From NCBI GenBank assembly GCA_036172245.1, contig JAYWIR010000023.1, positions 186,001-250,000 of the forward strand: 64,000 nt of DNA, in the 5' to 3' direction. A program made the position numbers and the translations under genes. Origin of the DNA: Raillietiella orientalis (taxonomy: Eukaryota). Within the stretch, counting starts at the first letter, position 1. Each line of letters begins with the position of its first letter. The notes beneath the pieces are model-generated. The model did not search any database. It had not been told where the DNA came from and saw only the letters and a program-made list of their open reading frames with translations. Shown piece after piece: positions 12,229 through 63,502 of this stretch.

Positions 12229-12897
12229 GTAAAGGAGGTTCGGCTGGAGGGTGCGGGTGTGGTTAACCGCGATGCGAACGAAAAGTTCCGCTCGCAGGGA
12301 GGTGGCCACTGCGTAGAGCTCGAAGCGCACGCACTCTCGCGGCTGCATGGTAGGAGGGGGGAAGAGGGTCGGAAGCTGCGAAAAAAACGATTCGCTCCCC
12401 TAGCATCTTCCGTCAGTGCCCACTCCTCCCTCCTTTCGCCCTACTCTCCTCTCCGACGGCCCTGCACGCACCAGGCGCTCGTGCGCGATCAGAGGGTTGC
12501 CATCCGCCCCGAGGACCTCACCCCGTGAATCGGCAAAGCGCTTCGGGGTGCCGCTGCTTGCGTGGACTCCGGCGGCGCCTGCGCCAGCATCGAGGCTCTA
12601 CGATTCCGGATGTGCGTCCCATCGGGGCGCTAGCACATTCCAGGAGACCTGTCGACTCGCATCCCTGTGGGCCGCACTCCACCTCGCGCGCACCTTCAAT
12701 GACCTCTCGCAAGAAAGCCCGGCTGGAGTGCCGCTCTCGTAAGCGGATGCGGTGCAAAACCCTGCCGAAGCGGTTCTTTCTCTGCCCTTCTCCGGTGCGG
12801 GGGCAGTAGTGACGTAATTGAACCTGTTTGCCTAACCTCGCTTCCGTGCTGATCAAGCTAACCTCGGGTCATCGTTCTTGATGTTCTTTCCTTTCAG

Positions 12898-15546: not shown

Positions 15547-15735
15547 CCAACTGGGGCAGTTGCGGATGGACCTCGAGGGCATCCTGCGAAGGATGACCCT
15601 CCTCCCAGTGGACTGTGATCCCTTACCGGCCCTCCAAACTCTTTTTGTTTTTCTTATCTTTGTTTTTATTTTTTGTTTTCTCCCCCATCCCCTTCCACTG
15701 CCGAGGAGAGTCACACCGGGCTGCATCCCGGTGTG
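15547..15735 (+). mobile_element. Family A LINE 3'-end fragment, inverted relative to its neighbours
   Basis: QLGQLRMDLEGILRRM plus a T-rich 3' UTR closely matching 20310-20495. Confidence 0.88.
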
Positions 15736-31486: not shown

Positions 31487-32157
31487 CAAGGAGCCAGAGA
31501 CATTAGATACTAAGGTTCTGGATGAAATATATCTGTTACTATATGATTTGTAATTCCTTTGTTTCTTTCACTGATGAAGTGTACTATCCATCTATCTGAA
31601 CTCATCTTCTCGTAGTTGGGGTCCATGTTTGCAAAAATTATGACATGTAGACAGCTGAACATCTCTACATGTCCTTGGTATTTTGTGGAGCATAGCATTC
31701 CATTTTTGATGGTCTCTATCCGTAGTTTATGATTTCTTGGGAATCTTTCGTTAAGTCTAAGATAACTATTTTCTGTCCTGAATACATGTATGCAGCATCA
31801 CATTTTCTACAGTTTGTAAGGTAAAGTGCATCATATTTCAGGTATGTGTGCTTGGCCATCGTAGTCTTTCCTGAGTAACCTTGGTAATCCGTGAACCAGT
31901 GTATGTCTCGTTCATTCGGTTCGTTGTTGATTATTTCAAGAAGATTTAGTTGCCACTGTTGAAGGTTTTTTCCAGCCATTGGGTCAGCTCTGTTGTATTT
32001 AGTGAATCTAATAGTGTCGTTTATGAATTGTCTATGTTAATCGTAAATTTCAGTTTTTCTTTCCATAGCCAATGTTCAGTTTTTCCTTCCTGAATCTGAA
32101 ATGTTGTATCTGAAAGATTGTTTGTTAGTATTAGTTTGTTTATTCTTACTTACTTAC
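31487..32157 (-). pseudogene. rep: Endogenous CRESS-DNA virus Rep fragment (intron plus SF3 helicase exon), EVE2
   Basis: IHWFTDYQGYSGKTT (Walker A), IVILDLTK (Walker B), KNGMLCSTKY, HVIIFAN (motif C) and SDRW (Arg finger). AT-rich island with frameshifts and a stop. Coding stop at 31510. Confidence 0.92.
32110..32157 (-). other. 48-nt spliceosomal intron of EVE2 Rep
   Basis: GTAAGT donor, TACTAAC branch site (32124-32130), TTTCAG acceptor. The downstream exon aligns with EVE1 Rep exon 2. Confidence 0.8.
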
Positions 32158-34139
32158 CTTCTGCAACAACCGCCCGCTGAAGGACGTCATCGTGCAGCCC
32201 ACCACGTGTGCGTAGACGCAAAGAACCTCCCTAGCTGCGGTACTGCCTTCCCTCTGGGAGTAGCTGGGCAGTAACCAGTCGGCCAAATGGTCAGTTGCAA
32301 AATCAGTCAGAAGACGACGGAACTAGGTGGTGAGACTACGGTCCAGCACAGAACTACGAAGAGGGGAGTAAGTGTTGTGTATAAGACATGCTAGGGAAAG
32401 GGTTATGGATGGGAGTGGAAGAGAGATGAGAATGGGTCAGGGTCTGTTGAGACCCCAAGTGCCCCGCCGAAAAAACTGTTGCGCTGGAGTGAGCTGCTGG
32501 GAATCCCACAGGGAGACCTCGAGTAGCCCCCAGCGCTGAAGAACAAGACCTACACATGTATGTTTATTTTTTATAAAAAAACATGTCAGCGTGATGACGT
32601 GATAAATCGAGCGGATCATCCCACCAAAGGAGTCCCCTCTCCCGGAAACGAGGACTGACGCCGTCCACCGACACGCTCGTCTTGAAGCCGTCAGGGAGTT
32701 TCTCGACTGCTCAAACGGACAAAAGGTCCGTGCGAGCAACGGTGATTGGGTTCGGTGGGAGGTAGAAGGGACCCAGAAGAACACCGGAGAATTTGGAATC
32801 GGGGAGGAACATCTTCCATACGGGATTTTTGTGCCAAGGGTCCACTTTTTAGTCATCTTTTTTGCTCCATCCGCACCGCCAAAAACTGTTTGCTGCCTTC
32901 GTAGGATCGCGGCGATGCCGCATACTGGACTTCTGCGTGTACGAGGAACGTCGAAACCTCATGTACATTAGAGACCAGGAGAAATTTTTCTTCTACTTCT
33001 TGTTGTTCTTCTTCCTCTTCTACTTCTTTTCGTTCTTTTTCTTCTTCCTTTCTCAAAAAATGAATCTCATTGCTTCGTGGAGCAGATAATTCATGCGAGA
33101 GTCCCACGAGATTGGGAGTCTGGAACCCGACAGACAGTGTCCCTGAAGACACCATCATCTTGGCCAGCAGCTTACCGGTGGCCTGCCCTGGGACACCCGC
33201 CGCACCGCTCCGAGTGTTCGCTAAGGGCTCCAACTGAGCAGAAGGAACCTCCATGCCATCTGGGAGGACGGGGCATCCTCCGGGGTAGGACTCCAGGGCA
33301 GCCTGCAGCTCCGAAAGGACCACCCCGAGAGCTGCACGAGCCCACCATCGTCAGGAAGAGTCGCATCGAGGAAATTGGAAACGCAGGGAAGTGGGAAGCT
33401 CTGGGAGCCCCTACAGCCGCTTGCAGTTTGGCTCTCGCGTGAGATACGAGACCTAGTCGGGCACGTCTGACCACTCACGGAACCCTGGAAAGCGGGTTGG
33501 GTGGTCTCTCCTCCTGTTCCACCCACACCCACTCGGCATCGGCAGCTGCGGCGACCACCGTGGCAGCCGCTGCCCAACAGGAGCTACGTCCAATTGGCTT
33601 CGACCACCGGTCGCGTCGGGTTCGCCTCCCATCCGGACGATTCTCTGCCACGTGCGAGCCGCGGTATGCATCAAAGCAGGAGTGAATGACCACTGTCCTC
33701 CCGCCTGCGACCCCCATCGCCTATAATGTGGAGGGCTATGGGAGAGCCCGATTAGTATGTGAGTTGCAAGGGAGCCTTCGGACGACTACGGGCAGACAAA
33801 ACCTCAACCCCATGCCGGTCACACCCAGTCCTCATCCGACGCACGCTCCTAGGAACCACGATGCCTCCCCATGAAGTCGGCCTATTCTGTTCCCTAGTCA
33901 TTTGTCTATCCATTGGCTCTCTTCCTCCTCCCCCTTCCCTCCTCCCTAGTTCTGTCCCTAGCGCCTTTTCTGTAAGATCCGAGCAACTGTCAGCCTAGGA
34001 TGATAGAAATTCTTTGGAGTTCTCTTGTTTTCGCCGCATTCCTTCGACTTTTTTTGGGGGGAGGGGGTCTCTGATTGCTGAAGAACCGTTCATCTCCTTA
34101 GGAGTGCTCAGGAAGCCCTTTAACACTGTCCACGCCACC

Positions 34140-36599: not shown

Positions 36600-37560
36600 G
36601 CCCCCGTCCAGGATGAGCTGCGCTAGCATTGCAGTTCCTCGCGCACGCGCGCACCTCGCGAATACCACGCTCAGCACCCGTTTCGACGGCGTCTACCGAG
36701 TGGACCAGTTGGGCTCGAGTGGCCCCGTGCGGTCGATCCCTCAGTGGCGAACACCCCGCGCACCACAGGGCGCGCACACCGAACGGACTCTGGGGTGAGC
36801 TGCTGGGAATCCCACAGGGAGACCTCGAGTAGCCCCCAGCGCTGAAGAACAAGACCCTCACCCTGAATAGTGGCAGGAGTCGGCACTACTGCTGTTGCAC
36901 TGGGGCATACCGTGCAACGCTCTCTATCTCACTGGACCCGGGGTCTGTGGACTCCAACTGCTACAGGTGCGGGAAACGGAAATTCCTCCCCTCCCGCACC
37001 TGCTTGTAGACCGTGTTGCCCTCCAGTCCCTGTGGTTGCGTTTCGCAACGGCCCTTGGTGCACCGACGGACAATCCCAGGGACGTTACGAAGCGCTTCTT
37101 CGTGCGCGATGCTCTTTCGTCTGTCGCATCCCCAGCAGCTCTTTGCTGCCCACGCAGGATTGTGAAGGCCTGGAGCGACGCCATTGGAGGAGGACGGCGC
37201 GATATGAACGCCATCTGCCCTTCGCCCTTTGCTTCCTGCGGACGGCAGCAAGATGGCCCCACCTGGGGCATACTCGGATGGAACTGGGACGGCATCCTGG
37301 AAAGGATGCAGAGGACGCTCTCCAGCAAACAGCGAGCCCTTCCCGTGGCCCCCAGATTTTTCCTTTTTTTATTGATTTTCATTTTTATTTCATTTTTGTT
37401 TGCCCCCTCCCCCTCTCCTGCCGAATAGAACCTCGCCGGCCTGTGTGCTGGTCACTCGGCAGGTTCCGCGCATTTTCGGACGACTTAGGGCCGATGGCCC
37501 TGAACACGTATGTTTATTATTTTTTATAATAAACGTCCCGGCGTTACCGGGTGTTAACCA
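36600..37560 (+). mobile_element. Family A LINE 3' end with 3' UTR
   Basis: WGELLGIPQGDLE*, WQESALLLLHWGIPCN, LPHLLVD, and a UTR ending AATAAACGTCCCGGCGTTACCGGGTG. Confidence 0.88.
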
Positions 37561-37929
37561 AAGGTGTCGACTGCCTCCCGCCTCCGCACTCACGAGCTGA
37601 CGCAGCGACACGAAGTCATGTTCCGACAGAAATGCCACTAATGCCAACAGGTATCCGTGCCTTTTCGTCCTTTGGAGTAGTCATATCCGGCGGCGAAAAG
37701 CAGGATGAGGCGTTCAGAGACATGCCAGGCACACATCTGTGGCGACCGCGCGGGAGTGGGGATGCTGACCCCTTGCAGCCAACTGCCAGCCTGAGGATGG
37801 AGCGCACGGGAAGGTTCCAACGTTTTTTTCGCCGCCGCCGGACGGATCTTCGGAACCGCATCTGAAGCTCGATTCGCTCCGGAGCCGATATTCTTGGTCC
37901 AGCATCCCGACGAGGAGGTCCTCTGAATG

Positions 37930-38397
37930 GGCCTCATTCCAAACCTTCATTCCAAACTCCTCGCCCATATTTCCTATAGTTAAGCCTAAAGACAACGGCT
38001 CTATCTTCACAGCACAGCCTTTCACTCGCACATATCTATAATACTTCGCCAAACCATCCAAATTACATATTTTCAACAAGTCTGACACAGCAATCTCTGA
38101 TTCTAAATAACAATACATCCAGGAACAATTCACGTGATCTCCATCTGCAGTTCGCAAAGAAGAGTAATGCTCAGCACCTTCCGCTACATCACGAGCTACC
38201 ACACGTGTTGTACGGCCTATACGGTAACGAGGAGACCTGAACCGTCTCCACTTACGACGACGATTATTCCAAAGACGCCGACGCTTAAACGTACTATATC
38301 CAACCCCGCGCCTAGACAAACGACGACGCTTCACGCCATACGATGATCCTCCACGCTTTCTCTTCCGAGAACGAGAAGCGCGAGGTGCCACTGCCAT
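37930..38397 (-). pseudogene. cap: Endogenous CRESS-DNA virus capsid protein, C-terminally truncated (EVE1)
   Basis: Very Arg-rich N-terminus (RSRKRKR...RRRKWRRFRSPRYR), then YYRYVRVKGCAVKIEP, like the Y.YYRI..V.V.F.P strand of CRESS capsids. Divergent from Rep. The ORF formally runs on to 37714 in non-viral sequence. Confidence 0.88.
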
Positions 38398-38472
38398 TCC
38401 ACTGCTTGACAGCGTACTGGCGACCTAAGTCAACCCCCCTCCCTTTTTAAGTGTGGCTGGTGGGACACGCCC

Positions 38473-38505
38473 ACCCGACCTCATCAGCCTTCCACGAGGT
38501 CGGGT
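38473..38505. repeat. Second intergenic hairpin (10-bp stem, 13-nt loop)
   Basis: ACCCGACCTC (38473-38482) pairs with GAGGTCGGGT (38496-38505). Confidence 0.85.
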
Positions 38506-38644
38506 TACGCCACGCACTTCCCACGTGGACAGCAACAGCCTGTTCCGCGTTCCAAAGTCTTCCACGATTGCGGACAAAAACCAGACACTAAAAATATCAC
38601 TTACAACATATCGGAATTTCCCAAGGTTTTGCGTTGTCAGCGAA

Positions 38645-38679
38645 ATGCAATCTGGGTAATACCATTTACCAGATTGCAT
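38645..38679 (-). promoter_or_regulatory. Rolling-circle replication origin stem-loop with nonamer TGGTATTAC
   Basis: Perfect 11-bp stem ATGCAATCTGG/CCAGATTGCAT. The 13-nt loop reads TAAATGGTATTAC on the minus strand (nonamer 38656-38664). Confidence 0.92.
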
Positions 38680-38698
38680 CTTCTGCGCAGTTACGCAC

Positions 38699-38705
38699 TA
38701 TAAAT
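38699..38705 (+). promoter_or_regulatory. TATA box for Rep
   Basis: TATAAAT about 65 nt upstream of ACCATG (38768). Confidence 0.6.
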
Positions 38706-38767
38706 ACCAACACACAGACAACCAAAGCCAAGTCTTACCTACAGTGAATTACCTACAAGCAGAGACC

Positions 38768-39106
38768 ATGCCGTACGCACTGTTTTTCAATCGGTGCTTC
38801 ACACTGTGTAACTTCTCCGAAGAAGACTTGAAAGACATCAAGAACTGGTGCCGTGCCAACTGCGGCTTCGCCTGCATTGGACAAGAAACAGCAAAAACAG
38901 GGACACCACATCTCCGAGGATACTTCCAACTTAAAGAGCCACGCACCATGCCAGGACTCAAAAGAAAACCATTCCATGAAACTCACTTAGAAAAACCAAG
39001 AGGATCAGCACAGAGCAACCTACGGTACTGCACAAAGGAGGATAAACAAGCATGGACATACGGCAAAATCCACGAAGCTAACGAACCCACCGACTACCAA
39101 GACCTA
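38768..39106 (+). CDS. rep: CRESS-DNA virus Rep exon 1 (HUH endonuclease), EVE1
   Basis: Motif I CFTLCN, motif II TPHLRGY, motif III YCTKED; no stops. Confidence 0.93.
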
Positions 39107-39154
39107 GTAAGCCATAAACCTTTAACAACAACATTAGAAATCCTCTTCCACTAG
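39107..39154 (+). other. 48-nt phase-0 spliceosomal intron in EVE1 Rep
   Basis: GTAAGC donor, branch-like CTTTAAC, pyrimidine run, CTAG acceptor. The acceptor TAG is the only in-frame stop in Rep. Confidence 0.82.
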
Positions 39155-39613
39155 ATACTCCAACTCATCGAGGATGGTGCAGACGAACACTTCATCCTCA
39201 AAAATCACACAAAGTTCTACAGCAAGAATATTAACTTCGTAAAAGAATGCTTCAGACTTACCAGAAGCAGAGCACACCCCAAACCCTTAACTAATCTCCA
39301 ACTAAGAAGCTGGCAACTCGACATACTTAAACTCATACGACATAAACCAGACAACCGCAAGATCCACTGGTTTTATGACCCTATCGGAGGAATAGGCAAA
39401 ACAACCATGGCTAAATTCCTTTACTTAAAAAAGGGTGCCATATATATGCATTCGTGCAAAAAAGCAGACGCCGCCCACATATACAACGGCGAGAGGATCA
39501 TCGTTGTCGACCTCACAAGGGACAATCAAGAACTGGTGCGATACGGCTTCATAGAAACCATGAAAAACGGCATCATGTTCGACAGCAAATACCAAGGATC
39601 AATCAAATACAGT
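39155..39613 (+). CDS. rep: CRESS-DNA virus Rep exon 2 (SF3 helicase), truncated before motif C
   Basis: IHWFYDPIGGIGKTT (Walker A), IIVVDLTR (Walker B), YGFIETMKNGIMFDSKY. The frame stays open into GC-rich flank up to 39928. Confidence 0.92.
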
Positions 39614-40559
39614 CCCGCAGGGCTTTCCTCGGGAAGCCAGCGGTCCTTCTACGCGCCGCGTAGGGAGAGGGAGAAACGAAAAGCGGAAGTCAGAGGAGGG
39701 GCAGCAAAAGCGTTCTACGCCGCGGACCGCTCCGGTAAGAATCTGCTACAGACGAACGTGCTGAGGTCATCCCGCCTCCCGAAAACCGCCGCAGGATCAC
39801 CCTTTGCCGCGCAGAAGTCTTCCATAGGCCGGCATAGGAAGTTCAGAGCATTGGCCAATGGGAACCCTCAGACGAGTCCAAATCGGTGGCATCTCAAGCA
39901 AAACTACCCTTTGCCGGCACCGACGTAATCTGATGACACCGAGGTGTTTCTTTCCCAAAGGAACGTAGGCAAACAAAGTAGGGAGTGAACCATTTGCTTC
40001 TAGGAGTTCAAGGGGGAATAAACCATCGACCCACAGGTTGGCAACAGGAAGGACAAAGAGGGTTGTAAGGGTCACATTATGGATGGCAAACAAACAAAAA
40101 AAAAAGGAAGAAACAAATAAGCGAGAGAGGGAGAAGGATCAACGGAGATGCCGGCAGCATCCTCCTCAGCTTCCGGTTTCCCATTTCTGATCGTTGAAGA
40201 GGCGGGGCGTACGGCCTTCGATTCTTGCTGACGTACTTCCTGCGTGTACCAGGAAATCCTTCCCACGCAATCGAGCCGGCGAGACATCCGGGCTGCAGGC
40301 GAGAGCCCTCCACTAGGGAAGCAGCGCCGCGGCGACTTCTTGAGGGTGTCCTCCGGACTCCGGGGGTCGCACAGCAGACGTCGGACAGGAGATCCGTCGA
40401 CCATTCCCTTCTGTTACTCCTGCTACAGAGCACGAGATCTCCCACTATCCCACCATGCCCCCTGTCGTTTCTCTCTCATAGGGAGGACAGCACTACGGCT
40501 AGGGAGCTGGCGGAGTCCAAACCACATCTTCTGGTCCTGTCGCACTTCCTCAACAAACG

Positions 40560-42850
40560 GCCCCCATGTTGAATCACAATGGCAGCGGTCCCCGTGATGC
40601 AGACGCAGGTGCCCATTGTGCTATGCGTTGTAGATTGCAGGACCGCAGGAGATCCATTGGGGTTCTTCCCACAGGGGAGCAATCTACCTCAGTGGAAACT
40701 GAAGCAAGTTCATACGGCCTCGGTTGCGAGATAGCAACAACGCCATTTGCTCTCAGCCAAGCGCGCGCAGACTGGCTCCGAAGCCGCATCCACTTCTCGG
40801 CCATCAAGGTGATAATTCCGATGTGAAGCTGGTGGTTCCATCTTCTTAAGCGTGAGGATGCCGAGCTCTGCATCCCTTCGTCGGCCAACCAGGTCTTTGA
40901 AAGGAACCTTCGATATTGCGGAGCTCCACAGGGCTTTCCGTAGGTCCCTCTTACTCCTCGCCTCGTATGGAGGGAGAGGAACAAAAAGAAGGGGGTGGAG
41001 GAGGGGTGAGGCGAAGGCGTTCCAGATGGAGGAGGGTCTTGATCGACAAAAAATACCAGCTCGGAATGGCACCAGCGCCATCTGTGCCCTCTGGAGACAT
41101 CCTTCTAAGATCACACAGAGGTGCACCACCGTGCCGGCAAGGAGATCCCGATAGGTCCGGTCCGGATTCCGTGCACCGGCAGGAAAGGCCTTCGACTTCG
41201 TCCCGTTCCCCTCGAGAGACGCTTCCGGGGTTGACATGGGAAGCAGGAGAAAGAGCTAGCCGGCATGTGCCGACACGGCCGGCATGCGGAAGCAGGAAAT
41301 TGGTAGTCTTCTTGCACACCCCAGGCTCGCTGGAGAACAGACTGGAAATCCCGACTCCTGCAGCACATCGAAAACCAACCTCCACAGCACCGCCACCCCG
41401 TTTTCGTACCATGCGGGGCGGAGAGGAACACGGAAATTTGCAGCTACCTTGCGATGCAGGACTTAGGATCTCAGAATTACACAGGTCCTTCATATCCCTG
41501 TAGAATCCCATGCTTTCTTCACCCAGTCGGTGGTTGACCTGCATGCGTCCATAATGCCGAGCTGGGTTCAACTGGACCGTCACGGCAAAAGCGAGTCCAC
41601 TCCACCGGCCTCGTCGAAAAGCATCCCAGGCACTTTGTCTGTGAAAGACTGGTGCACGAGAAAGACGACTTTTATACAAGTCCCGTGCTGCGCTTGAAAT
41701 ACACCGTGTCCCCAGAGAGACCTTCGATTTTTAATGCTTCCTTCGAGAATGATCCGATGAATCTCCCGGAAGAGTACTGCGGCAGCTGTTCTGCTTCTCT
41801 TCGTGTCATCGCGTAGCCGTCGACATTCCAACAGGTTGGGCAAAGCCGACGCAGAGGTGACGTCACGCATGACTCAATGGAAGGCGATACGTTAGAACCC
41901 TCCGTTTTCTCCAGCTGGAGGAACTCACGGGCGGGAGGGAACCCAACGGAGTCAACCTCTCCTCCAGGAAGCCACGTGAATTGAGTGGCATGGCCTCGCT
42001 TCCCGATTCAGAGCCAGCGTTCACCTTCGGAGAAAACACCTTGTCCACGTGCTTTCGGCTGACGCGAGCTGACAGCGATGCGTGGATCACCTGAGGTCAC
42101 ACGTTCCGGATCCAATTCCTGAGTCTGAAGAGAGAGGTCTGGTTCCCGTCGTGCCTTTGACTAAGTGGCGCCCAATCTTATTGGAAGGTGTGGTTCCGCC
42201 AACTCCCGAGGCCGAGCATTCCGCCGCGACATGGTCGGAGTGCACCTCAGCAGTGCGGCCGACATCCGCGGCCTCCCCTGACTCCATCTGCGAAGTTGAA
42301 GCGGCTTCAGAGGGGGCATGGCTTCCCCGTTCGTGGGATGCTCAGCTTCCTGCTTTCGCAGCCGCGGAAGCAGAGTGCACCTTGGACTCACTGCTCTTGA
42401 TCACTGGACTTCTTTTCTCTACCAGATGCCCAGATGCTTTGCAGCGGCCACAGATTTGTGGCTTCCCTGCAATCAAGAGTCGTGTGCCACGTACACAGAT
42501 ACGTGTTATGGGATGACATCATCTTATAGGGGCACCGTGACTCGCGCTGCGGCCCAGTCCGCTGCCTTCCCTACGGGCAAGCGACAGCCGCTGCCAACTG
42601 GCGGGGCGGGAGCTCTCCTGCACTGCTTCAGGAGCTGCAAAATTCCTGGACGGCTGGGCGGCGAGCAACCCGGTGAAAGCTTTCACTCCTTGCCTCCAGG
42701 CGGAAGGGACTTCTTAGCTGGAGAAAAATCTTGAGTGTGCCTCCTGAGGAAATCGCGGTTCCTCCTTTGTGTCTGGACACTTCAATGTTTCCCTCGAAAT
42801 GGAAACAGGATTGCCCGCGTCGGAGGCAGGATTTGGAAACAGCCCCCGAA
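40560..42850 (-). mobile_element. Strongly decayed L1/Tx1-like LINE (ORF1 knuckle, endonuclease start, post-RT region)
   Basis: GKPQICGRCKASGHL (~42420-42480), TCWNVDG (~41830), SIWNAFASPLLHPLLFV...DLRKALWS...LGILTL (40850-41040). Confidence 0.7.
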
Positions 42851-43770: not shown

Positions 43771-46169
43771 TGAAAGGAAAATAGCGAAGACAGAAAAAGA
43801 ACCCAAAAGGATTTATGTATCTGCACTGGGGAGTTCCCAGTGCCATCGGCTTCGGCACTTCGTTTCCAAGGGATTTGCGTCCCCAAAGCGTTTAGCGTGT
43901 GGGACGATCGAGTCGTTCCCAAGCCTGTTGTCGGACTCCAAGAACTGTGGAGGAGGTCGTCTTCAGCGCTCCTGCTCCCGGAAACACCTGGACGAGGTTA
44001 GGTTTCCGCCACAAAAAGTAGGCGGTCGCGAATTTTGAGTTTCCCGCCGGACCCTTTATTCAGGATCTCCGCTCTGGGAGATCATAAAGGATCCATCCTC
44101 CGCCACCGCGAACACCTTGGAACCCATGTAGTTGAACGGGCGTTTAGGGAAACAGAGAGTGAGCGTGGCGCGTCTGTGGAGACTCCACGCGCCTCTCGCG
44201 CTAAGTATGAGGGTCACGAGATCCGCCCTATCTTCAGCCACGAGGTCGCAATGCTCGGCCCAAATCATTTACAGCCACCTGGAAGCCAACGTGACTTACC
44301 TTGTAGAGCAGAGCAGGATTGAAACCCGGGGATACGTAAGCCATCATCTCTACGTGTTCGGGCGGAGCTCTTTCGTTGGCTACTACCGCCGCCATGTCAC
44401 TCCACAACCTGGAAGCAACTGGAGAGATGGCCATTGCGACTCGTTTGCGGGCAGCAACAACGGGCTGAGATCGGAAGCATTCTCGACACCGTTCTCCTTG
44501 AGACCAGCACAAAATGCAGGCGATCCCCCCTCTCGACTTCCTCCAAATGGGGGCACTTCGCTGCAGTCCCCACGGAGGCCGCTGCCACGCGGGTGGATTC
44601 CTGTCACTGCGCATGCAACTCGAAAACGTGACCAGCAGCAGTCACGGTAGAGAGGATGCAAAGAATCGTCTCTGCCACGGCTTCTTGGGGGAGTTCACCT
44701 CGCGCGGAAGGCCAGAATGGCCAGAATCGCCGCAGCAAGTCCTCGGCCATGCCCCCGAGTGCAGCAGCGCTGGAGTCGGCTTTCGGCACGGCTCTTGGAG
44801 TGACAGCGCAGTCGAAGAAACAGTTGCGAGAAAGACTCGCTTGTTTCCGCACTTGGAACAGTTCGGCGATGAGGCACTCCCGGAAACGGGGTGTCGGCGC
44901 TGGAAAAGAGCACTACCAGCTCCTGTCTCCACTTCAAAGGGAGCACCGAGGAAGAATGGTAAGTAAGCGTGACAGGAGAAGTGTCGAAAAGCATCCGAAA
45001 CGAAGGATCTGACACCCCAAGTCTCCCTTTCTTTTGTTATTTATCTATTGTCCCTTTCCCTTCCTCTCCGGACATCTTGTGCGACAGAGCTGTGTGTCGG
45101 TGATCCGTCCGGTGAAATTCTTCCTGTTTGCCCAGTTCCCAGCATGTTTGTTAATTTTTACAGTAATCCCCCCCGCCGCGGCCGGGTGAACACGCACGTG
45201 CCATTCTATGGTGAGTTGGCGTTCCGGCAGAGCTGTGAACCGCGCAGCAACACTCAAAGCACACGGTGCAAGCGAGTCCTACCGCCATTCTTCGAGTGGC
45301 AAAACCTCTCTGGCGCCCCATTTGCACGGTTTCGTGGAAGTACCACAGAACATCGCTGCTCGCGCTCCACTGCTGTAAGCGCATCGCTGCTCGCTTTGCA
45401 TGACCATTGGTTACTCGCCACGTAGAGACTGCTGATGTGAAACCTCCCAATTTCAGAGAGTCATGGCGATCTCGGGGGAGACAGGCAGGCAGAAGCAGTG
45501 GCGCCTTCCAAGAGCAATGCTCTTCCCGACCGGTGCAGCAGTGATTCGAAGGAGGCGGAATGAGAAGGAGGCAAGCAGTTTTCCACGCCCTAAGAGAGCT
45601 GCTGCTCCTCCAGGAAGGTAGGCAGGCACAGATGCCATGTGCCGCCTCTTCGTAGGCTCGTTCGTAGGCTCAGCTTCGTTCGTAGGCTTGTCAGCTGGCA
45701 ATCCACGATCGGAAGAACTAGGAAAAGCTCCTTCTCGTCGGGACACCCTCCCAACTGCGCAACTGTTTCACCGAGACTCCGGACTCTTGAAGATCCACAG
45801 AGCCGACTATCGACTCGAGGAGATTCCCATGGGAGTCACGACACCTCGGTTGAGATCACCCTGTTTGGAGGCCTTTACAAAGGTGTAGAAAAGGGGCACG
45901 CGCACCTCACGACTCAGTGAGGCCATATCTTTGACCAGATCTCAGTGAAGTAGCAGACACGGTTGTGCTCTGCAAAAAGGGAGAAGAGACAGGACAACGA
46001 GCTATCTCGAGGGGCACCGTAGACCAAGAAAGAAGGGCAGCTCTATCACTTCCGCTCCTGTGAACATACTGCCCAATGTTCATAGGAGCTCCCTTGTCTG
46101 CGTGTCTTTTCTTTCTTCCTCCCTTCCCCTTTTTAACTTTTGAAGCCGTGAGGCAGCGCCCATCCAGCC

Positions 46170-49100
46170 GGCATGCACATAGAGTCAACCAGCGAGGGAC
46201 AAAGGAATACCATGGATGTAGCGATCTCGATAAGGAACGAGCTCGCTCACACCATCCTGGAAACCTTCTGCTCCATGACGGGAGGAATCGTCGGCGCACG
46301 AATTTCCTGGTCCGCAAATGTTCACTGGTTCTTGGTGAACGTATGCGGACTGCACCACCAAAAGCATCAGTGCGCGGAGGCGCTCCACGGAACACTCCGG
46401 CAAAATGTCGCACCGAAGGAGATTGTGATCATCGTGGGGGATTTCAACATCCTGAATGAAATCATTCATTCCCGAGACGCCAGAGGCAGGGCAGCGTATC
46501 GGCGGCTGTCCGACAAGTTCAGGCTGCTGTGGCTAACAGCCAGCCACAAGCCTATCGACCACATCCTCTACAGCTCCGATATAAGGAACCGTATCCACGG
46601 GTTTCGTGACACGCCCACCTTGCTGTCCGATCACCCATTGGTGAGGTTTTCCCTGAGGACTGAAAACCCTCGGCGAAAGAAGGCCACAAGGGCGGCACTC
46701 ATCAGCATGCCTGCCTGGTTCGAAACGCTACCCTGCCATCAAGAAGTTACAGAGACGACCAGCATCCGCAGAGTCACTGACTGGGATAGCCTGAAACACT
46801 GAGTTCACCTGTTCTGCAACATGCAACTCGAAAACAACTCGAAACATGCAGTTCAAGATGCAGTTCGGTGACAAGAGACCGAGGCAGGAAGCGTACCGGG
46901 AGCTGCACATCCAAAATCGCTCCCTCTCGAAGTACTGGGAACAATGCGAAGGTCGGTACGTCTTCCAAAATGTAAAAGGGGAAATCGACGTGCTGGAGAA
47001 GAAGAATCTGGCAACAGACATCTTCTGGATCCAATACGATGGCCACAGTCGGCACACGTCGGAGGACATCGCGGACGCCTTCCAGAGGCATTACGTGAAG
47101 CACTTCCGATGAAGATATCTGTGCCCGACTAATCAAGGAATTTTTTTGCGACACCTGGAAAGACGAACGAGTGAAAACCATCGGAATATGCTTGAAGAGG
47201 AAATCTCCGAAGAAGAAGTGAAAGCTGCGTTTGTGGAACTTCGGCGTTTGTGGCAGCGAGCCCTGATAGTGTCCACATCTCTCACTATCAGCGGTACTTG
47301 CATGCCTACCGACGTTTGTTTCACTAGCTAACGCTCTGCATCCGACAAGAAGGACGACTACCTGCATCCTTCTACGAGGAGGATGAGATTGTTGTCGAAA
47401 GGAGGTAACCTGACTAAGGTTACCCAATAAAGGCCAACCACAATCCTGAACAGCGATGCCAAGTGGTTAGCAAAGATCTGGGTTAACCGCTTAGGCAAGG
47501 TCATGCCGAAGCTCATCTCTCCCGTCCAGACATGCGCAGTGTCCGGACGCCACATGTCGGACAATGTCAAGTGTGCTCAGGCTACCATTGGTCTCAGACG
47601 ATATATCGGTGAGAACTTAGTACTGTGTTTCACTGACATGTAGAAAGCTTTCAAGACGGTGGACCATGGGATGCTGTTGAAGATTCTAGGAAGACTGGGC
47701 CTCCCGGAACAATTCAACAACTTCGTAAAGATGATATTGGAAGAGCAACACTTTCGGATAAAGATAAATGGGGAAGAGACGGCAGCCATCCGGATGGAAC
47801 GAGTCCTCCAAGGCGATGCTCTTAGTCCGATGCTGTTTGTCAATGCTGTTTGTCATGTCCTCTCATCATTCATAGAGAGAAGTGGGCACCTCCGCGGAAT
47901 CACTGTCGACAATCAACGGCTCACCCATCTGGCTTACACGGATGATCTTCTCAAAGGGGAGAGAGGTCAACGTACGTTTCTGGATGTACTGGAGCTTATT
48001 GAAGAAGGATTGGGCTTAAAAATCAACGCCCAGAAAAGCCAACTTTTGCCCGTCGGAATCCTGGATCTCTCCATACTCATAGAGGAAGGATTCCGAACGA
48101 TGGACAATGCGAAGTACCTGGGTGTCCACATTGGCGACAATTCATCGTCCCAACTATTGTGGAAGGAAATCCTGGGGAAAACAGCGAAAGAAGGAGCGAA
48201 GTATACCCGTTTGGACTTTAACATGAAGAAGAGGGCCAATCTTTGGAACGGAGTACTCCTTCCGAAGATACTCTTTGGAGAGGCCTTCTACAGAATGTTC
48301 AAAGATACCAAGAGGGAGGTAGAAAAGCTTCAAAGGAAAACTCTATGGGGAAGATACCAACCAAGAGTCCTCCTCAAACCACTGTGTCATCCTAAGGAGG
48401 AAGGCAGTACCGGGATGAAGTCGCTTGCACACGCTGTGGACACCTTGGACGTGCGACAACTCCTGGACATGTTGGAAAACTGGGAAGACTGGCCGTATGC
48501 AGCGCATAGGGCTTACTCGTTGTTGATAAATAACTCGAGAGGACTGATGACTGCGCTGCTCGGCAGATAGGTGAATGGGTCATCATCGACCCAATCTGGA
48601 GACGAAAGCAACAGCTGGTACACAAGCACCAGCTGAAGATCATACCAAGGAGCAAGGAACTCTGGCAGGAGGAATCCATCCTGGCGATCCCGTGGATGCT
48701 CCCGGTACCTCCGGATACGAGGAGCTGGATCCACCAGCGGTCCAAGGTTACTTTGCAAGCAGCTCAAGTATGGAGACGACGAGAGTACTTTCACTACTCC
48801 CGAATATCCCGATAAATTGATAGGATAGCTGGAAGATTCACCCACAGAACCCGCGAAGTGTGGAAAAAACACAACAACTTCGTGTGGTCCAGGGTAACAA
48901 AGAAAAAACTGTGCCAACTAATAGTTGAAGAGGACAAAGACACCAGTGCCCTCCAAGAAGCCGCCGATAGCCACGGAAGTGCTGGGATAAACCTGTTGGC
49001 TATTGGAACGACGCTCTGGAGGAGGAACTTGTCACCGGACACACAGGATAACCTCCTGATGTTTTATCATGGAGGAATCCTGTGCGGGACAACCATGAAG

Positions 49101-49670: not shown

Positions 49671-51936
49671 CCACCCCTTGTGGGACTTGGGAAAAATAGT
49701 CAACCAGCTTTCACTGCCCCTCGAAATAATGCACGATAGGAACTCCATGGAGAGCACCTACCCCCTTCGGGGAGTTCCAAGCAGGTCTTCTCTGTTGCTC
49801 TAGATCGTGCTCTCTGAAATGAATGTCCCCTCCATTGCCTGCTCTTCGTCAGGGCGTAAGGGACCTCAGCTGCTGAGGAACGGAGGAAGGCTGCAGAAGA
49901 GTACGTCCAGACAAGCCATTTCGCCTGTCTTCATGACATCCGCTCTAGAGCGCCCCTTGCAGGAGTGTCTGCAGCAAAGGGCGGTCTCTTTGAAGTCTTC
50001 CGGAAAAGCGAATCCCACTGGCCGAAAAACAGATCAGCTGAACACATTGCCCTCTCGGGAACAGTCCCCGAGTGTCCGAATAGGGAGAACCACCAATGCG
50101 CAGATGCGACTCGAAGACCACCTCGGGGTGGTCTTAAAAGGAGTGACTCCGGAGAAACAGAGGAGCATTTCTCAGGACCGAAAGAGGGCACGGCTTTCGT
50201 GGCCAAATACCTTCAAGATCGTCCACCATGACCTATATTCTCATCCTTGAGAAGTGCCAAGACGGTTTACTCGAGCTAGCGGAAAGAATCACGAGACGAC
50301 AGATCCGCCATGAAGGGCCGGACTCCCAGACTAACAGGAGCTTTCGGATAACAAAAACAGGAGCGAGTGGAAAGGAGAGAGCCTTTCCTTCCTTCCTGTC
50401 CATGTTCTTTCTGGAAAGGGCCCCTTCTGGAGAAGAGTTCGCCTCGCCCTTCCTTGGAGTCTTGCTCCAACTGCCGACCCAGCAGCTGCGAAGCAGCACC
50501 GGAAGATCGGGGAGCATCCGACTATGGCCTCCAGCCGTCCCGATAAAGTGGATGTGAAACATGGCAAGGCATGGACGCACCCCGTTATCGCACCTCGCGT
50601 GATCTAGCGGGACACCGCAGTGTCCCCTCCTCTCACCATCTCAGGGGATGAACCAGCAGCGCCAAACAGCTGCCGAGAGCACTAGCGCTTGAAGCAGCCC
50701 GATGAGGCAGACGAGTAACGCAGCCTACGACGAGAGATCGGAAATCGAGCAGTTGAAAATATGGTCGGAAGGATGCCGCCACAACCGCCAAATTCACGCT
50801 TTTTGAAGGCATACTCCACTTCTCCAGCGTCAGCACCATCTCCGAGATCCGGTGATTCCGAGAGGCTACACTCAAGACCGCTGTCCTGTTGACCAGACCT
50901 CGTTGAGGATAGGGAAGCTATCGATGGGATGTGCCAACGAGACATGCACATGACAAAGGCACTGCAGGCAGTGCGCAGGAAGTGAGCTATGCTACAAGAA
51001 ACACCAAGGACATAACCGGATTTGCGTCGTACGCCGAGCGAATCCTTCTGTTCGTTCTCGGCTATCCCGGACAAGATCCTAATGGATAAGTTTCCGAGAA
51101 CAAAGACAAAGTTTCCCGCCGAAAACTGAGAGCTTACAAGGAGAGCCTATGCTTCTCAGGGATGAGTCTACTGAGGAAAGCTACCTGAGACCAAGAACCA
51201 CAGGCACGTCCCGGCGTTACCAGGTGATAATGGCAGGTCGCTCATGGTTGCCTATCCTCGCTCACCGAGAAACACCACGCATCCCTAGCAGTAATGGTAG
51301 TTTAACGAATATGAATGAACAATCGAGCGAAACGGGCACTTTCCAAAGGTGGCTCTCGCGCACCTTGGAAGGCATTTAAAGCAGCACTTGTGTGTGGGGG
51401 GGAGGTCACATGGGCAATCGGCATCCTGAGAAAATGAGATAGTGATCTCAACACTCTCCTATCTTCTCGAGGAACGGACAGACAAAGCTGTAAAGTAAAG
51501 TTCAGAGAGAAGTACCAGGAATACGCAAACCAGCAGGCAATTTATTTCCAACCTATAAAAGATGATTTACACGAAATAACTCCGCATATTTCTTGCCAGC
51601 AGAGATCGGAGCAGCTGTAGAGCAAGTCAAAAGTTTGCACTCAGGGACGAAATAACCAGATGCACAAAAACTATTGCCCCAAGTGGAACCCAACAAATCA
51701 GATATGCCAATGCTAGGTTTGTAAGTGCAATTTTGAAAACAACCATACGGGGATTCAAATCGATATAATAAAAACCATAAAAAACTAATGAGAAAACATA
51801 AAAACCTACTTTGGGCCTGCAAAAAATTACAATCCGTTTGTGAAAACCGCTGCAATTGTGCATTTCTAATGCAAATCTGCATTTGGAACCAAAATTCTGG
51901 CTAGCTACCAGTAAATTAAAGTAAAAAAGAGCAGCA

Positions 51937-53312
51937 TTAACTGTCATATTTTTTCCTTTTGTTTTCTACAAAATACACATCGACGCATTCGTCCTGCTCC
52001 ATGAATAAGCTACTTGGGGTATCCTCTGGTGATAACTCCTCTCCATCAAAATGGAAACGCAACTGATCCATTGGAACATGTTGATGTTCCGCATAAAGTG
52101 CAAACAAGATATGGAATGGATCATCCCTTTTGATATGCATCGTTACAGTGTCCTTTCTTTTGCTTGTCTGCATCTGCAGCCTGATCATGTTGGTATCATG
52201 GATCTCATCGTGCAATGATGAAGCACTGCAGACATTCCCTGATGACTGAGCAACATATGCTTCTACAAAAGCTGTGTAGCTCCTGTAGATAGATAGAGGT
52301 CTCACCAATAACATCTGTAACAGACAGCTGGAGGTGATAGGGAGTATCTCTGGGATACAAGCATCTATCTCTCACACTCAGGTTTATGTGAGATGGATCC
52401 ACCTGCATCAATTCAGCAAGATGCTGCTGCAGCACAGCCATGCCTTGAAACTGTTAATATGATATAATGATTACAGTGAGTAACTACTCTTACTTGTTTC
52501 ATGGGAAACCTGATGATTTTTCCCTGAAACTTGACTTTCAGCAAAATCATCTTATTATTTACTGGACTCTGCGCAGGATCACTGTCATCCTGAAACACAA
52601 CTGTAATCTCTCAATGAAACAGAAAACGTAAACTAAACACACAAGCACTTGCTCCTCTTGCATGTATTCTATGGCCTTCTTCTGCAGCTGCAAACTTCTC
52701 AAAATAGAGCTGACTTCTTCATTGAACGTCACTGTATTCGTACTTTTTTTGTTCTCAAAATCAACTGCTGGCATGTCATCATCACTAATAACAATATGAT
52801 TTAGAAAAAGTACATGATCTTGGGCTTTAAATACGTGCTCATGATCATGATTACACCCAGTATTTAACAGTTTCATTATTCATAGTATAGTCAGATGACT
52901 AAATGACCACAATTTCAAGACCAGTATTTATTGCACAATCAAAAGGAGCAAAATTACACTAAAATATAAAATGAAAATTGGTATGAAAAAACGGCCATCA
53001 AATGTGTCAGCACATTCATCTATATAAAATCTCAGATGCTTAAGACACTATGGATCTATAACTTGGGCAAAAATGCAACAAAAGGTCTATAACCTAGATT
53101 TTTAATATAAACATCAACATGAAAATCCCCATGGATTTTGAAATTTCAACGTACAATAAAATCTAAAACTTACTTTTCGGAATCACTGCTCAATGAGATC
53201 ACACAAATGTCACTCTTGGCCTTTGTTTTCGCATTTTTTTCTTTGTTGCAGATTTGAGTTTCATGTGCATCCTTGGGTTGGCTATTAGCAATTTCATCAT
53301 AGCATGGGATGT
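51937..53312 (-). CDS. Rad60/Esc2/NIP45 (NFATC2IP)-like protein with two SUMO-like domains, 3' exons
   Basis: Phase-compatible exons ~53312-53174, 52784-52649, 52589-52494, 52450-52306 and 52262-51937. SLD1 ends ...PRDTPYHLQLSVTDVIE; SLD2 has LRFHFDGEELSPEDTPSSLFMEQDECVDV. SIM-like VISLSSDSE upstream. 5' exons not resolved. Minus-strand AATAAA at 51541-51546. Confidence 0.82.

Positions 53313-62551: not shown

Positions 62552-63502
<951 letters not shown>

What the first reader, a model, noticed from the sequence alone, without database searches (positions are those of the whole stretch)
37930..39613. Near-complete endogenous CRESS-DNA virus: ambisense Cap + origin + Rep in an animal genome
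Seen: a ~1.7 kb AT-richer island with an Arg-rich capsid gene (-), an intergenic origin hairpin and a Rep (+) with HUH motifs I-III and Walker A/B, both genes truncated at their 3' ends by host repeat sequence. Established: endogenous CRESS elements are mostly Rep-only. The helicase pattern W.YD..GG.GKT / DL.R / YG.IE..KNG...S.KY resembles nanovirus/alphasatellite-type Reps more than circovirus Reps. Inference: this may link an unclassified monopartite CRESS lineage to an invertebrate host. The absence of disabling mutations suggests recent integration or selection.
Basis: partly seen in the sequence, partly recalled or inferred. Interest (0 to 1): 0.88.

Follow-up and report, generated by a model that had tools for sequence, protein, structure and literature searches.

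The report
Two endogenous CRESS-DNA virus fragments
A truncated copy of a small circular DNA virus (capsid gene, replication origin and spliced replicase gene) sits inside what looks like animal DNA, with an older broken copy of a sister virus 6 kb away, giving a host clue for a poorly known virus group.

Summary
Window 37930-39613 (GC 0.46, flanks 0.57-0.59) holds three features of a CRESS-DNA virus:
- an Arg-rich Cap 5' part on the minus strand, 156 codons;
- a 370-nt intergenic region with an 11-bp-stem hairpin whose loop carries TGGTATTAC on the Cap-sense strand;
- a Rep gene on the plus strand, with a Pfam Viral_Rep nuclease domain, a 48-nt GT..AG intron and an SF3 helicase that breaks off before motif C.

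About 75-85% of a roughly 2.0-2.4 kb ambisense genome is kept. It looks as if the circle was opened at the convergent 3' ends.

It carries the same 48-nt intron position and the helicase through to its natural stop, with two in-frame stops and one frameshift. The two Reps are each other's closest relatives (44% aa) and are sisters in a tree.

All 6 virus-named proteins among the top 120 profile hits belong to Anicreviridae (Mulpavirales, the nanovirus order). Family membership is unresolved.

The contig carries an immunoglobulin-domain exon and LINE elements, so an animal host is likely. Invertebrate origin is untested.

Not supported: "truncated by host repeats" and "no disabling mutations" (truncation, and Q-to-R in motif II). 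Junctions could not be checked with reads.

This is a new member of a known kind.

The parts
37930..38397 (-). Copy A: 5' part of the putative capsid gene (156 codons, ATG at 38397). The C-terminal third or more is missing. The frame runs on by chance into GC-rich flank down to 37714.
   Evidence: The ORF is listed. There are 28 R/K in the first 65 aa, and 0 stops in frame against 14 and 10 in the other frames. Pfam Circo_capsid scores only E = 0.016-0.023, 15-16 bits against a cut-off of 36.2. Language-model features score 0.96 to Cressdnaviricota capsid clusters. No sequence homologue was found. The left end is set by the composition shift only.
38398..38767 (.). Copy A: intergenic region between the divergent Cap and Rep start codons.
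   Evidence: GC 0.495.
38645..38679 (-). Copy A: replication-origin hairpin with an 11-bp stem and a 13-nt loop, TAAATGGTATTAC. The nonanucleotide TGGTATTAC is on the Cap-sense strand (type II layout).
   Evidence: Fold -17.9 kcal/mol, z = -4.34, and 0 of 200 shuffles fold as well. It is the only one of 18 nonanucleotide-like sites in the window with a stem of 6 bp or more. Similar hairpins occur in 8 of 10 related IMG/VR genomes.
38473..38505 (.). Copy A: a second perfect 10-bp inverted repeat (ACCCGACCTC ... GAGGTCGGGT, 13 nt between the arms) on the Cap side of the intergenic region. Its role is unknown.
   Evidence: pair I2.
38699..38706 (+). Copy A: TATAAATA box, 62-69 nt upstream of the Rep ATG.
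   Evidence: Read directly from the sequence. Its function is inferred.
38768..39106 (+). Copy A: Rep exon 1, 113 codons, the HUH nuclease domain (motif I CFTLCN, motif II PHLRGY, motif III YCTKE).
   Evidence: Pfam Viral_Rep at E = 3.9e-13. Solved Rep nuclease domains match at E = 4e-10 to 6e-4.
39107..39154 (+). Copy A: 48-nt GT..AG intron. It holds the only in-frame stop (TAG, 39152-39154).
   Evidence: In the alignment, 9 of 14 homologues have no residue anywhere across the 16 codons it would add, and 5 have a few (P0003, P0005, P0006, P0023; P0008 only in the first of these columns). An intron of the same length and position, with a different sequence, is kept in copy B.
39155..39613 (+). 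Copy A: Rep exon 2, the SF3 helicase with Walker A GGIGKT and Walker B IIVVDL. It breaks off after KYQGSIKY. Motif C and the Arg finger are missing.
   Evidence: the profile match ends at 39610. Pfam RNA_helicase scores E = 0.004, below its cut-off.
31497..32157 (-). Copy B: a second, decayed Rep fragment from a sister virus. It comprises a 48-nt GT..AG intron (32157-32110), the helicase frame 32141-31722 with two in-frame stops, a frameshift at 31719-31722, and then 31719-31510, which carries motif C (IIFAN), the Arg finger (SSDRW) and the natural stop. It has no exon 1, no origin and no Cap.
   Evidence: tblastn with 15 Reps. Profile matches at 1.6e-30 and 7.7e-18. Sequence and composition, GC 0.351 against 0.616 and 0.549 in the flanks.

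Best explanation
Both loci are endogenous viral elements: germline captures of two related circular Rep-encoding ssDNA viruses (phylum Cressdnaviricota, class Arfiviricetes, near the family Anicreviridae in the order Mulpavirales).

**The donor of copy A.** It was a genome of roughly 2.0-2.4 kb with divergent Cap and Rep genes either side of an origin hairpin. Rep would have nicked the loop TGGTATTAC on the Cap-sense strand to start rolling-circle replication. Its mRNA needed removal of a 48-nt intron.

**How copy A was integrated (inferred).**
- A double-stranded replicative form in the nucleus was broken in the region where the 3' ends of Rep and Cap converge.
- It lost several hundred bases there and was joined into a LINE-rich chromosomal region by host end-joining.
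- It was not integrated by Rep, because the nick site is intact and internal.
- One break therefore explains why both genes lack their 3' ends.

**Copy B.** It is an independent, older or faster-decaying capture of a sister virus. It keeps only the intron, exon 2 and the stop codon.

**Present state.** Neither copy can replicate:
- Copy A has a single origin and less than one genome unit.
- Its helicase lacks motif C and the Arg finger.
- Its motif II carries an unusual Q-to-R change.

The loci are most likely inert relics. Their value is as a record that this virus lineage has repeatedly been in the nucleus of this animal's germline.
For: **Rep identity.**
- Pfam Viral_Rep at E = 3.9e-13.
- 7644 Rep homologues at E <= 1e-3, the best at 5.8e-44 and 41% identity.
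- Solved circovirus and nanovirus Rep nuclease domains match.

**Origin.** The hairpin is unique in the window and significant. It matches the hairpins found in 8 of 10 related 2.06-2.47 kb circular genomes.

**Intron.**
- GT..AG boundaries, and it holds the only stop.
- 9 of 14 aligned homologues have no residue anywhere across this stretch.
- The same 48-nt length and position are kept in copy B, although the two copies are only about 55% identical at nucleotide level.

**Host context.**
- Copy A lies 37 kb and 24 kb from the window ends, with no N in the window.
- The same contig has an Ig_3 exon at E = 1.3e-12, which matches titin, CEACAM, Dpr, Robo and DSCAM.
- It also carries LINE RT/endonuclease ORFs, a SUMO-like ORF and a polyubiquitin gene.

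**Second copy.**
- Copy B carries stops and a frameshift.
- It is copy A's nearest relative: 51 of 117 aa, 44%.
- The two are sisters with SH-aLRT 95 in a 61-row tree.

**Relatives.**
- All 6 virus-named proteins among the 120 listed profile hits are Anicreviridae, from six genera.
- No close relative turned up in IMG/VR or JGI metagenomes.
Against: - **No read-level check.** No genome is held for the window and no sequencing run was listed. So the four junctions rest on the assembly alone.
- **No empty site.** No target-site duplication or empty site could be examined.
- **Cap is weakly supported.** It has no sequence homologue. It is called a capsid gene from its position, its basic N-terminus, a sub-threshold Pfam hit and language-model similarity.
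- **Left junction.** The left junction of copy A rests on the composition shift only.
- **Animal origin.** It rests on one Ig exon 26 kb away plus gene-poor, LINE-rich context. No finer host placement was obtained, and a language-model look-up of a LINE ORF gave mixed taxa, Basidiomycota and Chordata.
- **Family placement.**
  - The tree backbone is unresolved (28 of 58 inner forks are open).
  - No other families were available as outgroups.
  - A+B did not fall inside the clade holding 5 of the 6 named Anicreviridae.
- **Inertness.** Copy A's retained reading frames are intact, which "inert relic" does not by itself predict unless the capture is young.
Confidence: 0.85

Rival explanations
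1. Assembly artefact. A free or contaminating circular virus genome was joined by mistake into a host contig.
For: No reads could be laid. The retained frames of copy A are intact and its base composition is unlike the flanks.
Against: - Less than one genome unit is present, and the sequence breaks off inside both genes rather than at a circular permutation point.
- Copy A is internal to the window, with 37 kb and 24 kb of non-viral sequence on either side and no N.
- A second, decayed fragment of a sister virus lies 6 kb away in the opposite orientation. A contaminant would not produce that.
Confidence: 0.04
2. Exapted element. Copy A is kept by the host. One possibility is a spliced, truncated Rep (nuclease domain plus a crippled helicase) that interferes with incoming related viruses. 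Another is that this TE-rich locus is a small-RNA (piRNA-type) source and both copies feed antiviral small RNAs.
For: - Copy A has 265 spliced Rep codons and 156 Cap codons without a stop, while copy B has decayed.
- A TATA box and intact splice signals remain.
- Two virus fragments in opposite orientation sit among LINE debris.
- A dominant-negative effect of captured Reps is discussed as a hypothesis for poxvirus-captured Reps (passage of PMC10193959 read).
Against: - No expression data could be obtained.
- There is no orthologue with which to test purifying selection.
- Intactness is equally explained by a young insertion.
- Motif II Q-to-R (0 of 216 homologues) and motif I N-to-C (1 of 187) fit relaxed constraint.
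- The frame running on into the flank is unremarkable in GC-rich DNA (225 open frames of at least 110 codons in 64 kb).
Confidence: 0.08
3. Host misattribution. The contig, or this part of it, belongs to a non-animal eukaryote (a protist or fungal associate). The elements would then point to a non-animal host, as for many other cressdnavirus lineages.
For: - Most EVE-confirmed hosts of newer cressdnavirus lineages are protists (passages of PMC9615429 read).
- A LINE ORF's nearest language-model clusters were mostly Basidiomycota.
- The 48-nt intron is short.
- GC is 0.57 over the first 51 kb.
Against: - An Ig_3/I-set exon on the same contig matches animal immunoglobulin-superfamily proteins at E down to 1.6e-14.
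- The 64 kb is gene-poor and rich in LINE fragments, unlike compact fungal or protist genomes. Only 5 of the 146 longest open frames scanned had any Pfam hit.
Confidence: 0.07

Closest known systems
Anicreviridae (order Mulpavirales, Cressdnaviricota), e.g. [quoted passage not shown]
   Same: - Rep has a Viral_Rep nuclease domain and an SF3 helicase with the pattern RKIxW..D..G..GKT / FDL.R / IE..KNG...S.KY (consensus).
- All 6 virus-named proteins among the 120 listed profile hits belong to this family.
[quoted passage not shown] That matches copy A's layout.
   Different: - Identity to the named members is only 29-33%.
- A+B form their own long branch outside the clade that holds 5 of the 6 named members.
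- The loop reads TGGTATTAC.
- Rep is spliced.
- Members of the family are known only as free genomes associated with invertebrate and vertebrate samples (table passage of PMC11945456 read), whereas these copies are integrated.
Paired Rep+Cap endogenous cressdnavirus elements in animal genomes (Krikovirus/Draupnirviridae EVEs in saurians and insects; a cyclovirus-like element in Hymenolepis microstoma)
   Same: - Whole or near-whole genomes captured with Rep and Cap side by side.
- Used to infer hosts.
- 17 of 36 Krikovirus Cap-like EVEs were paired with Rep-like EVEs (passage of PMC10193959 read).
- A Rep plus a putative capsid were reported in H. microstoma (passage of PMC6186406 read).
   Different: - This is a different virus lineage.
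- Copy A keeps an intact origin hairpin and uninterrupted frames, whereas the published examples regularly contained numerous stop codons.
- Two sister-lineage captures lie 6 kb apart here.
Circoviridae (Circovirus, Cyclovirus)
   Same: - Ambisense Cap-origin-Rep genome of about 2 kb.
- The nuclease domain scores best against solved circovirus Reps: 7kii at E = 4e-10 and PCV2 2hw0 at 1.5e-7. 7kii is Muscovy duck circovirus according to the abstract of PMC9973303 (listing).
   Different: - The full-length PCV2 Rep structure 7lar aligned only over residues 10-111, not over the helicase.
- The Circo_capsid hit is far below its cut-off.
- None of the 6 virus-named relatives is a circovirus.
Nanoviridae / Alphasatellitidae
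   Same: - Same order (Mulpavirales) as the nearest named relatives.
That nanovirus Reps share this style is my recollection; no call tested it.
   Different: - Here Cap and Rep lie on one molecule in ambisense order. Nanovirus genomes are split into components of about 1 kb with one gene each; that is recalled, not tested.
- The nanovirus Rep nuclease domain is the weakest of the solved matches, at E = 3e-4.

Membership tests
Cressdnaviricota (CRESS-DNA virus genome) | Rep with an HUH-type rolling-circle nuclease domain (motifs I, II, III) | tested here: met
   Pfam Viral_Rep at E = 3.9e-13, 49.9 bits against a cut-off of 26. Motifs are CFTLCN, PHLRGY and YCTKE. Motif II has R where 206 of 216 homologues have Q.
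Cressdnaviricota (CRESS-DNA virus genome) | Superfamily 3 helicase with Walker A, Walker B, motif C and Arg finger | tested here: inconclusive
   Copy A has Walker A and B but lacks motif C and the Arg finger because it is truncated. Copy B has Walker A and B, motif C (IIFAN) and SSDRW, but it is frameshifted.
Cressdnaviricota (CRESS-DNA virus genome) | Origin stem-loop with a conserved nonanucleotide in the loop | tested here: met
   11-bp stem, loop TAAATGGTATTAC, z = -4.34. It is the only one of 18 candidate sites with a stem. Related genomes carry similar loops.
Cressdnaviricota (CRESS-DNA virus genome) | Capsid protein with a single jelly-roll fold | tested here: inconclusive
   Circo_capsid scores 15-16 bits against a cut-off of 36.2. 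Atlas features score 0.96 to Cressdnaviricota capsid clusters. The single-sequence AlphaFold2 model has pLDDT 38 and is unusable. No homologues were found.
Anicreviridae (Mulpavirales) | Rep falls inside the family clade in a phylogeny with other families as outgroups. That families are set by Rep phylogeny is my recollection, not a result of any call. | tested here: inconclusive
   All 6 virus-named hits are Anicreviridae. In the 61-row tree, A+B lie outside the 17-row clade that holds 5 of the named members. Baranavirus lies elsewhere, 28 of 58 forks are unresolved, and no outgroup families could be fetched.
Circoviridae | Rep (both domains) and Cap homologous to circovirus or cyclovirus proteins | tested here: not met
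   Only the nuclease domain aligns to solved circovirus Reps; the helicase of full-length PCV2 Rep (7lar) does not. Cap is below the Circo_capsid cut-off.
Nanoviridae / Alphasatellitidae | Genome components of about 1 kb carrying a single gene each (recalled) | tested here: not met
   Cap, origin and Rep are contiguous on one 1.68-kb stretch in ambisense order.
Endogenous viral element | Virus-derived sequence joined on both sides to host chromosomal DNA | tested here: inconclusive
   This is met in the assembly. Non-viral sequence with LINE and Ig features lies on both sides, and the window holds no N. It could not be verified with reads.
Endogenous viral element | Signs of non-functionality or decay relative to free viruses | tested here: met
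   In copy A both genes are 3'-truncated, and Q50R, N14C and two further conserved sites are changed. Copy B has two in-frame stops and one frameshift, and it lacks exon 1, the origin and Cap.

The most novel reading that the evidence does not exclude
An otherwise unsampled, spliced-Rep lineage next to Anicreviridae has entered this animal's germline at least twice. That would make these the first genomic-fossil host links for that neighbourhood of the nanovirus order. On this reading the young copy A, with its promoter, intron, intact nuclease domain and crippled helicase, is not inert. It would be expressed as a truncated Rep, or as small RNAs from a TE-rich cluster, and would protect the host against its exogenous relatives.
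Probability: 0.1. Interest if true: 0.7.

Novelty: new member of a known kind. Interest (0 to 1): 0.4.

Why it matters
Most cressdnavirus lineages are known only from metagenomes and have no proven host. Integrated copies are one of the few ways to tie a lineage to a host nucleus.

Here two sister fragments in one contig, one of them decayed, argue for a lasting association between an Anicreviridae-like lineage and an animal. For many other newer lineages the hosts confirmed so far turned out to be protists (passages of PMC9615429).

The pair also gives comparative proof of a conserved 48-nt Rep intron.

Copy A is an unusually well-kept element with an intact origin and an internal nick site. 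That arrangement points to integration by host end-joining, not by Rep.

The kind of element is well known, so this is a useful data point rather than a surprise.

Tried and rejected

- Whole-genome search of the window's assembly: no genome is held.
- Sequencing runs for 37300-40300: none was listed, and no RNA holder was listed.
- Earlier findings of the scan: nothing relevant.

**Searches for relatives**
- Word-index protein search with Rep: 1 hit among 245 candidates.
- The same search with Cap: 0 hits among 951 candidates.
- Close relatives of either Rep exon in IMG/VR: none.
- Close relatives in JGI metagenomes: none.
- An A+B alignment against IMG/VR: one locus at 38% identity, no closer than the others.
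- Alignment A1 was too diverse to seed a locus search, so single hits P0004 and P0012 were used instead.

**Cap**
- Against the ORFs of ten related circular genomes: nothing better than E = 0.2.
- Against solved structures: nothing meaningful.
- Against the L003 Cap by BLASTP: E = 1.2.
- Single-sequence AlphaFold2 model of Cap: pLDDT 38, so no fold search was made.

**Other features in the window**
- Rfam, tRNA and tandem-repeat scans gave nothing that bears on the element or the host.
- The idea that the 7.7-kb AT-rich stretch at 51364-59051 is a mitochondrial insert was checked with code 5 and dropped, because no gene-like ORFs appeared.
- A third weak Rep-like match at 60350-60499 was rejected (E = 0.57).
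- The idea that copies A and B are two halves of one integration was rejected. They overlap over about 170 codons at only 44-48% identity.
Full report
**Observation.** The stretch 37930-39613 is an island of GC 0.461 between flanks of 0.594 and 0.565.

- **Cap.** On the minus strand an ORF starts at 38397. Its first 65 residues hold 28 Arg/Lys. The 468 nt inside the island have no stop in frame, against 14 and 10 in the other two frames.
- **Origin hairpin.** At 38645-38679 the minus strand folds into an 11-bp stem with the loop TAAATGGTATTAC (-17.9 kcal/mol, z = -4.34, 0 of 200 shuffles as good). Of the 18 NNNT[AG]TTAC sites on both strands of the window, this is the only one with a flanking stem of 6 bp or more.
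- **Rep.** On the plus strand Rep starts at 38768, 62-69 nt after a TATAAATA box. Exon 1 (113 codons) matches Pfam Viral_Rep at E = 3.9e-13, above the curated cut-off.
- **Intron.** The next 48 nt begin GT, end AG and contain the only in-frame stop. The frame then continues from 39155 through Walker A (GGIGKT) and Walker B (IIVVDL).

**Rep is a genuine, divergent CRESS Rep.** Read through with X at the stop, it finds 7644 proteins at E <= 1e-3 among 1.84 billion representatives. The best scores 5.8e-44 at 41% identity. The word-index search, which would pick up close relatives, gave only 1 hit among 245 candidates. IMG/VR and JGI metagenome scans gave none closer than 38%.

- In alignments with 14 and 25 homologues, the 16 codons of the proposed intron are an insertion. 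In one search, 9 of the 14 have no residue anywhere across that stretch, and P0003, P0005, P0006, P0023 and (in one column only) P0008 have a few.
- The protein stops being alignable after KYQGSIKY at about 39610, whereas the homologues continue with PHVxVFAN...P...S.DRW.
- So copy A lacks motif C and the Arg finger.
- At the 44 columns that are at least 90% conserved among the other 25 sequences, copy A matches 34. Six misses lie in the lost C-terminus. Four are substitutions: N14C in motif I, Q50R in motif II, A238I and S272D. The other sequences miss 0-6.
- Among 251 fetched homologues, 216 show the motif PH[hydrophobic]x. Of these, 206 have Q and none has R.
- The statement that the element carries no disabling change is therefore not accurate, although no stop or frameshift interrupts what is left.

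**A second copy.** tblastn with 15 Reps and a profile built from alignment A2 found one more Rep-derived locus in the window, on the minus strand at 32141-31564 (1.6e-30 and 7.7e-18). A third weak match at 60350-60499 is not significant.

- The locus is an island of GC 0.351 between flanks of 0.616 and 0.549.
- It begins with GTAAGT...TACTAAC...TTTCAG, again 48 nt, followed by ATAC as in copy A.
- It then carries the helicase with two in-frame stops, a frameshift at 31719-31722, motif C (IIFAN), SSDRW and a natural stop at 31510-31512.
- The two copies share 51 of 117 residues (44%) by BLASTP, 48% over alignment A3, and about 55% of nucleotides. That is more than either shares with any database protein.
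- In a 61-row IQ-TREE (quick mode) they are sisters with SH-aLRT 95 on a stem of 0.61. The rows were A, B, the six named proteins and 53 unnamed hits. The unnamed hits came from ranks P0004-P0045 and P0140-P0152 and were kept if 250-480 aa long.
- They overlap over about 170 codons, so they are two captures of related viruses and not two halves of one.
- An intron of the same length at the same place in two such diverged copies is good comparative evidence that the donor viruses had a spliced Rep.
- Spliced Reps are reported for some arthropod-associated CRESS genomes (passage of PMC6186406).

**Cap.** No sequence relative was found in any of four searches:
- the word-index search (0 of 951 candidates);
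- the ORFs of ten related circular genomes;
- solved structures;
- a pairwise test against the L003 Cap.

The Pfam Circo_capsid hit is far below threshold. That is normal in this neighbourhood. Language-model features place the ORF next to Cressdnaviricota capsid clusters at 0.96. A single-sequence AlphaFold2 model was useless, with pLDDT 38. I call it a probable capsid gene that keeps roughly half to two thirds of its length.

**Layout and integration.** The nonanucleotide lies on the Cap-sense strand, with Rep divergent. [quoted passage not shown]

- Related free genomes are 2013-2472 nt (L001-L009 and L011), and 8 of the 10 examined (L001-L010) have comparable hairpins.
- With 1684 nt kept, copy A is about 75-85% of a genome (my estimate).
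- In this layout the 3' ends of Rep and Cap converge, so a single opening of the circle there, with some loss, yields exactly Cap(5')-origin-Rep(5').
- The nick site is intact and internal. I therefore infer host end-joining of a broken double-stranded replicative form, not Rep-mediated integration.
- The claim that host repeats truncate the genes is not supported. Within the window, 37465-37930 and 39613-41200 are unique, and the nearest repeat, a LINE 3' part at 36790-37464, ends about 470 nt away.

**Classification.** A profile search returned 1720 proteins at E <= 1e-10 among 5750 candidates.

- Of the 120 listed, six carry virus names. All six are Anicreviridae of six genera: Manawavirus, Otevirus, Rakkovirus, Ketkevirus, Pekavirus and Baranavirus.
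- The family sits in Mulpavirales with Nanoviridae, Metaxyviridae and Amesuviridae.
The full-length PCV2 Rep structure aligned only over the nuclease domain.
- The nuclease domain, however, scores better with circovirus Reps (7kii at 4e-10, which is Muscovy duck circovirus according to the abstract listed; PCV2 at 1.5e-7) than with nanovirus Rep (3e-4).
- In the tree, A+B lie outside the 17-row clade holding 5 of the 6 named members. The backbone is unresolved, and I could fetch no outgroup families.
- Membership in Anicreviridae is therefore open. The safe statement is an unclassified lineage near it.

**Host.** No genome is held.

- The 146 longest of the 225 open frames of at least 110 codons (all at least 130 codons) were scanned, leaving out the three over copy A and the polyubiquitin frame, which had been scanned before. 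Pfam hits were found in only five: an Ig_3 exon at 11649-12263 (E = 1.3e-12), two reverse-transcriptase ORFs, an endonuclease ORF and a SUMO-like ORF.
- A four-unit polyubiquitin gene lies at 62.5 kb.
- The Ig exon matches titin, CEACAM, Dpr, contactin, Robo, LAR and DSCAM.
- This supports an animal. Vertebrate versus invertebrate was not resolved, and a language-model look-up of a LINE ORF gave mixed taxa.

**Comparison with what is known.** Paired Rep+Cap endogenous cressdnavirus elements are in print.
- 17 of 36 Krikovirus Cap-like elements were paired with Rep-like ones in saurian and insect genomes, usually with many stops (passages of PMC10193959).
- A cyclovirus-like Rep plus capsid was found in Hymenolepis microstoma (passages of PMC6186406).
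- Anicreviridae is listed only as associated with invertebrates and vertebrates (table passage of PMC11945456).
- My two searches for the family or order name together with endogenous elements found no report of integrated copies. The library is not complete, and ICTV proposals are not in it.
- The finding is thus a new member of a known kind. Its added value is a host clue, a second sister copy, a conserved intron and an intact origin.

**Limits.** Integration rests on the assembly. No reads, no empty site and no orthologues were available, so age, polymorphism, expression and selection are all untested.

Noticed in passing
window 51364-59051: A 7.7-kb AT-rich stretch (GC 0.342, down to 0.23 in 200-nt windows) in an otherwise GC 0.57 window. 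Apart from the SUMO-like frame at 51940-52371 and one at 51556-51900, it has no open frame of 110 codons or more. Read with the invertebrate mitochondrial code it gave no gene-like ORFs.
   Followed up: partly
window 36790-36856 and 32484-32550; 37505-37537 and 32551-32585: A 67-nt segment is 98.5% identical at the two places. Each is followed, at once or after about 650 nt of LINE 3' sequence, by a similar AT-rich tail (ACAYGTATGTTTATT...TTTATAA). These look like 3' ends of one LINE family lying 0.3-1.1 kb from both virus fragments.
   Followed up: partly
window 32157-32175 (minus strand): The viral part of copy B begins within a few bases of the intron's 5' splice site. The sequence just upstream (…GTTGTTGCAGAAG|GTAAGT) is GC-rich and not Rep-like. 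Whether this breakpoint at the exon-intron border is a coincidence is unexplained.
   Followed up: no
window 38473-38505: A perfect 10-bp inverted repeat with a 13-nt loop in the Cap-proximal part of copy A's intergenic region. It is separate from the origin hairpin.
   Followed up: no
window 11649-12263 (+): An immunoglobulin I-set/Ig_3 domain exon (E = 1.3e-12) that matches titin, CEACAM, Dpr, Robo and DSCAM. It is the only clearly animal-type coding exon seen in the window.
   Followed up: partly
window 13931-15622 (-), 19239-20381 (+), 46152-48567 (+): Several degraded LINE copies carrying reverse transcriptase, a zf-RVT-like C-terminus and an AP-endonuclease domain. Fragments 66-75% identical to one another make up much of the GC-rich part of the window.
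   Followed up: partly
window 62552-63499 (+) and 51940-52371 (-): A polyubiquitin gene of four 228-nt units (91% matches between units) and a SUMO-like (Rad60-SLD) domain ORF.
   Followed up: no
protein P0003: The best-scoring database protein is labelled as a hypothetical protein of a Methylococcales metagenome-assembled genome, on a 3.9-kb contig. It is a CRESS Rep with a partly duplicated helicase segment, so the contig is probably viral and mis-binned.
   Followed up: no
L010 2-1102 (-): One of the Rep-related IMG/VR genomes (3090 nt) encodes a capsid that matches the tombusvirus-type Viral_coat S domain (E = 3.7e-17). It is therefore a crucivirus-like chimera.
   Followed up: no
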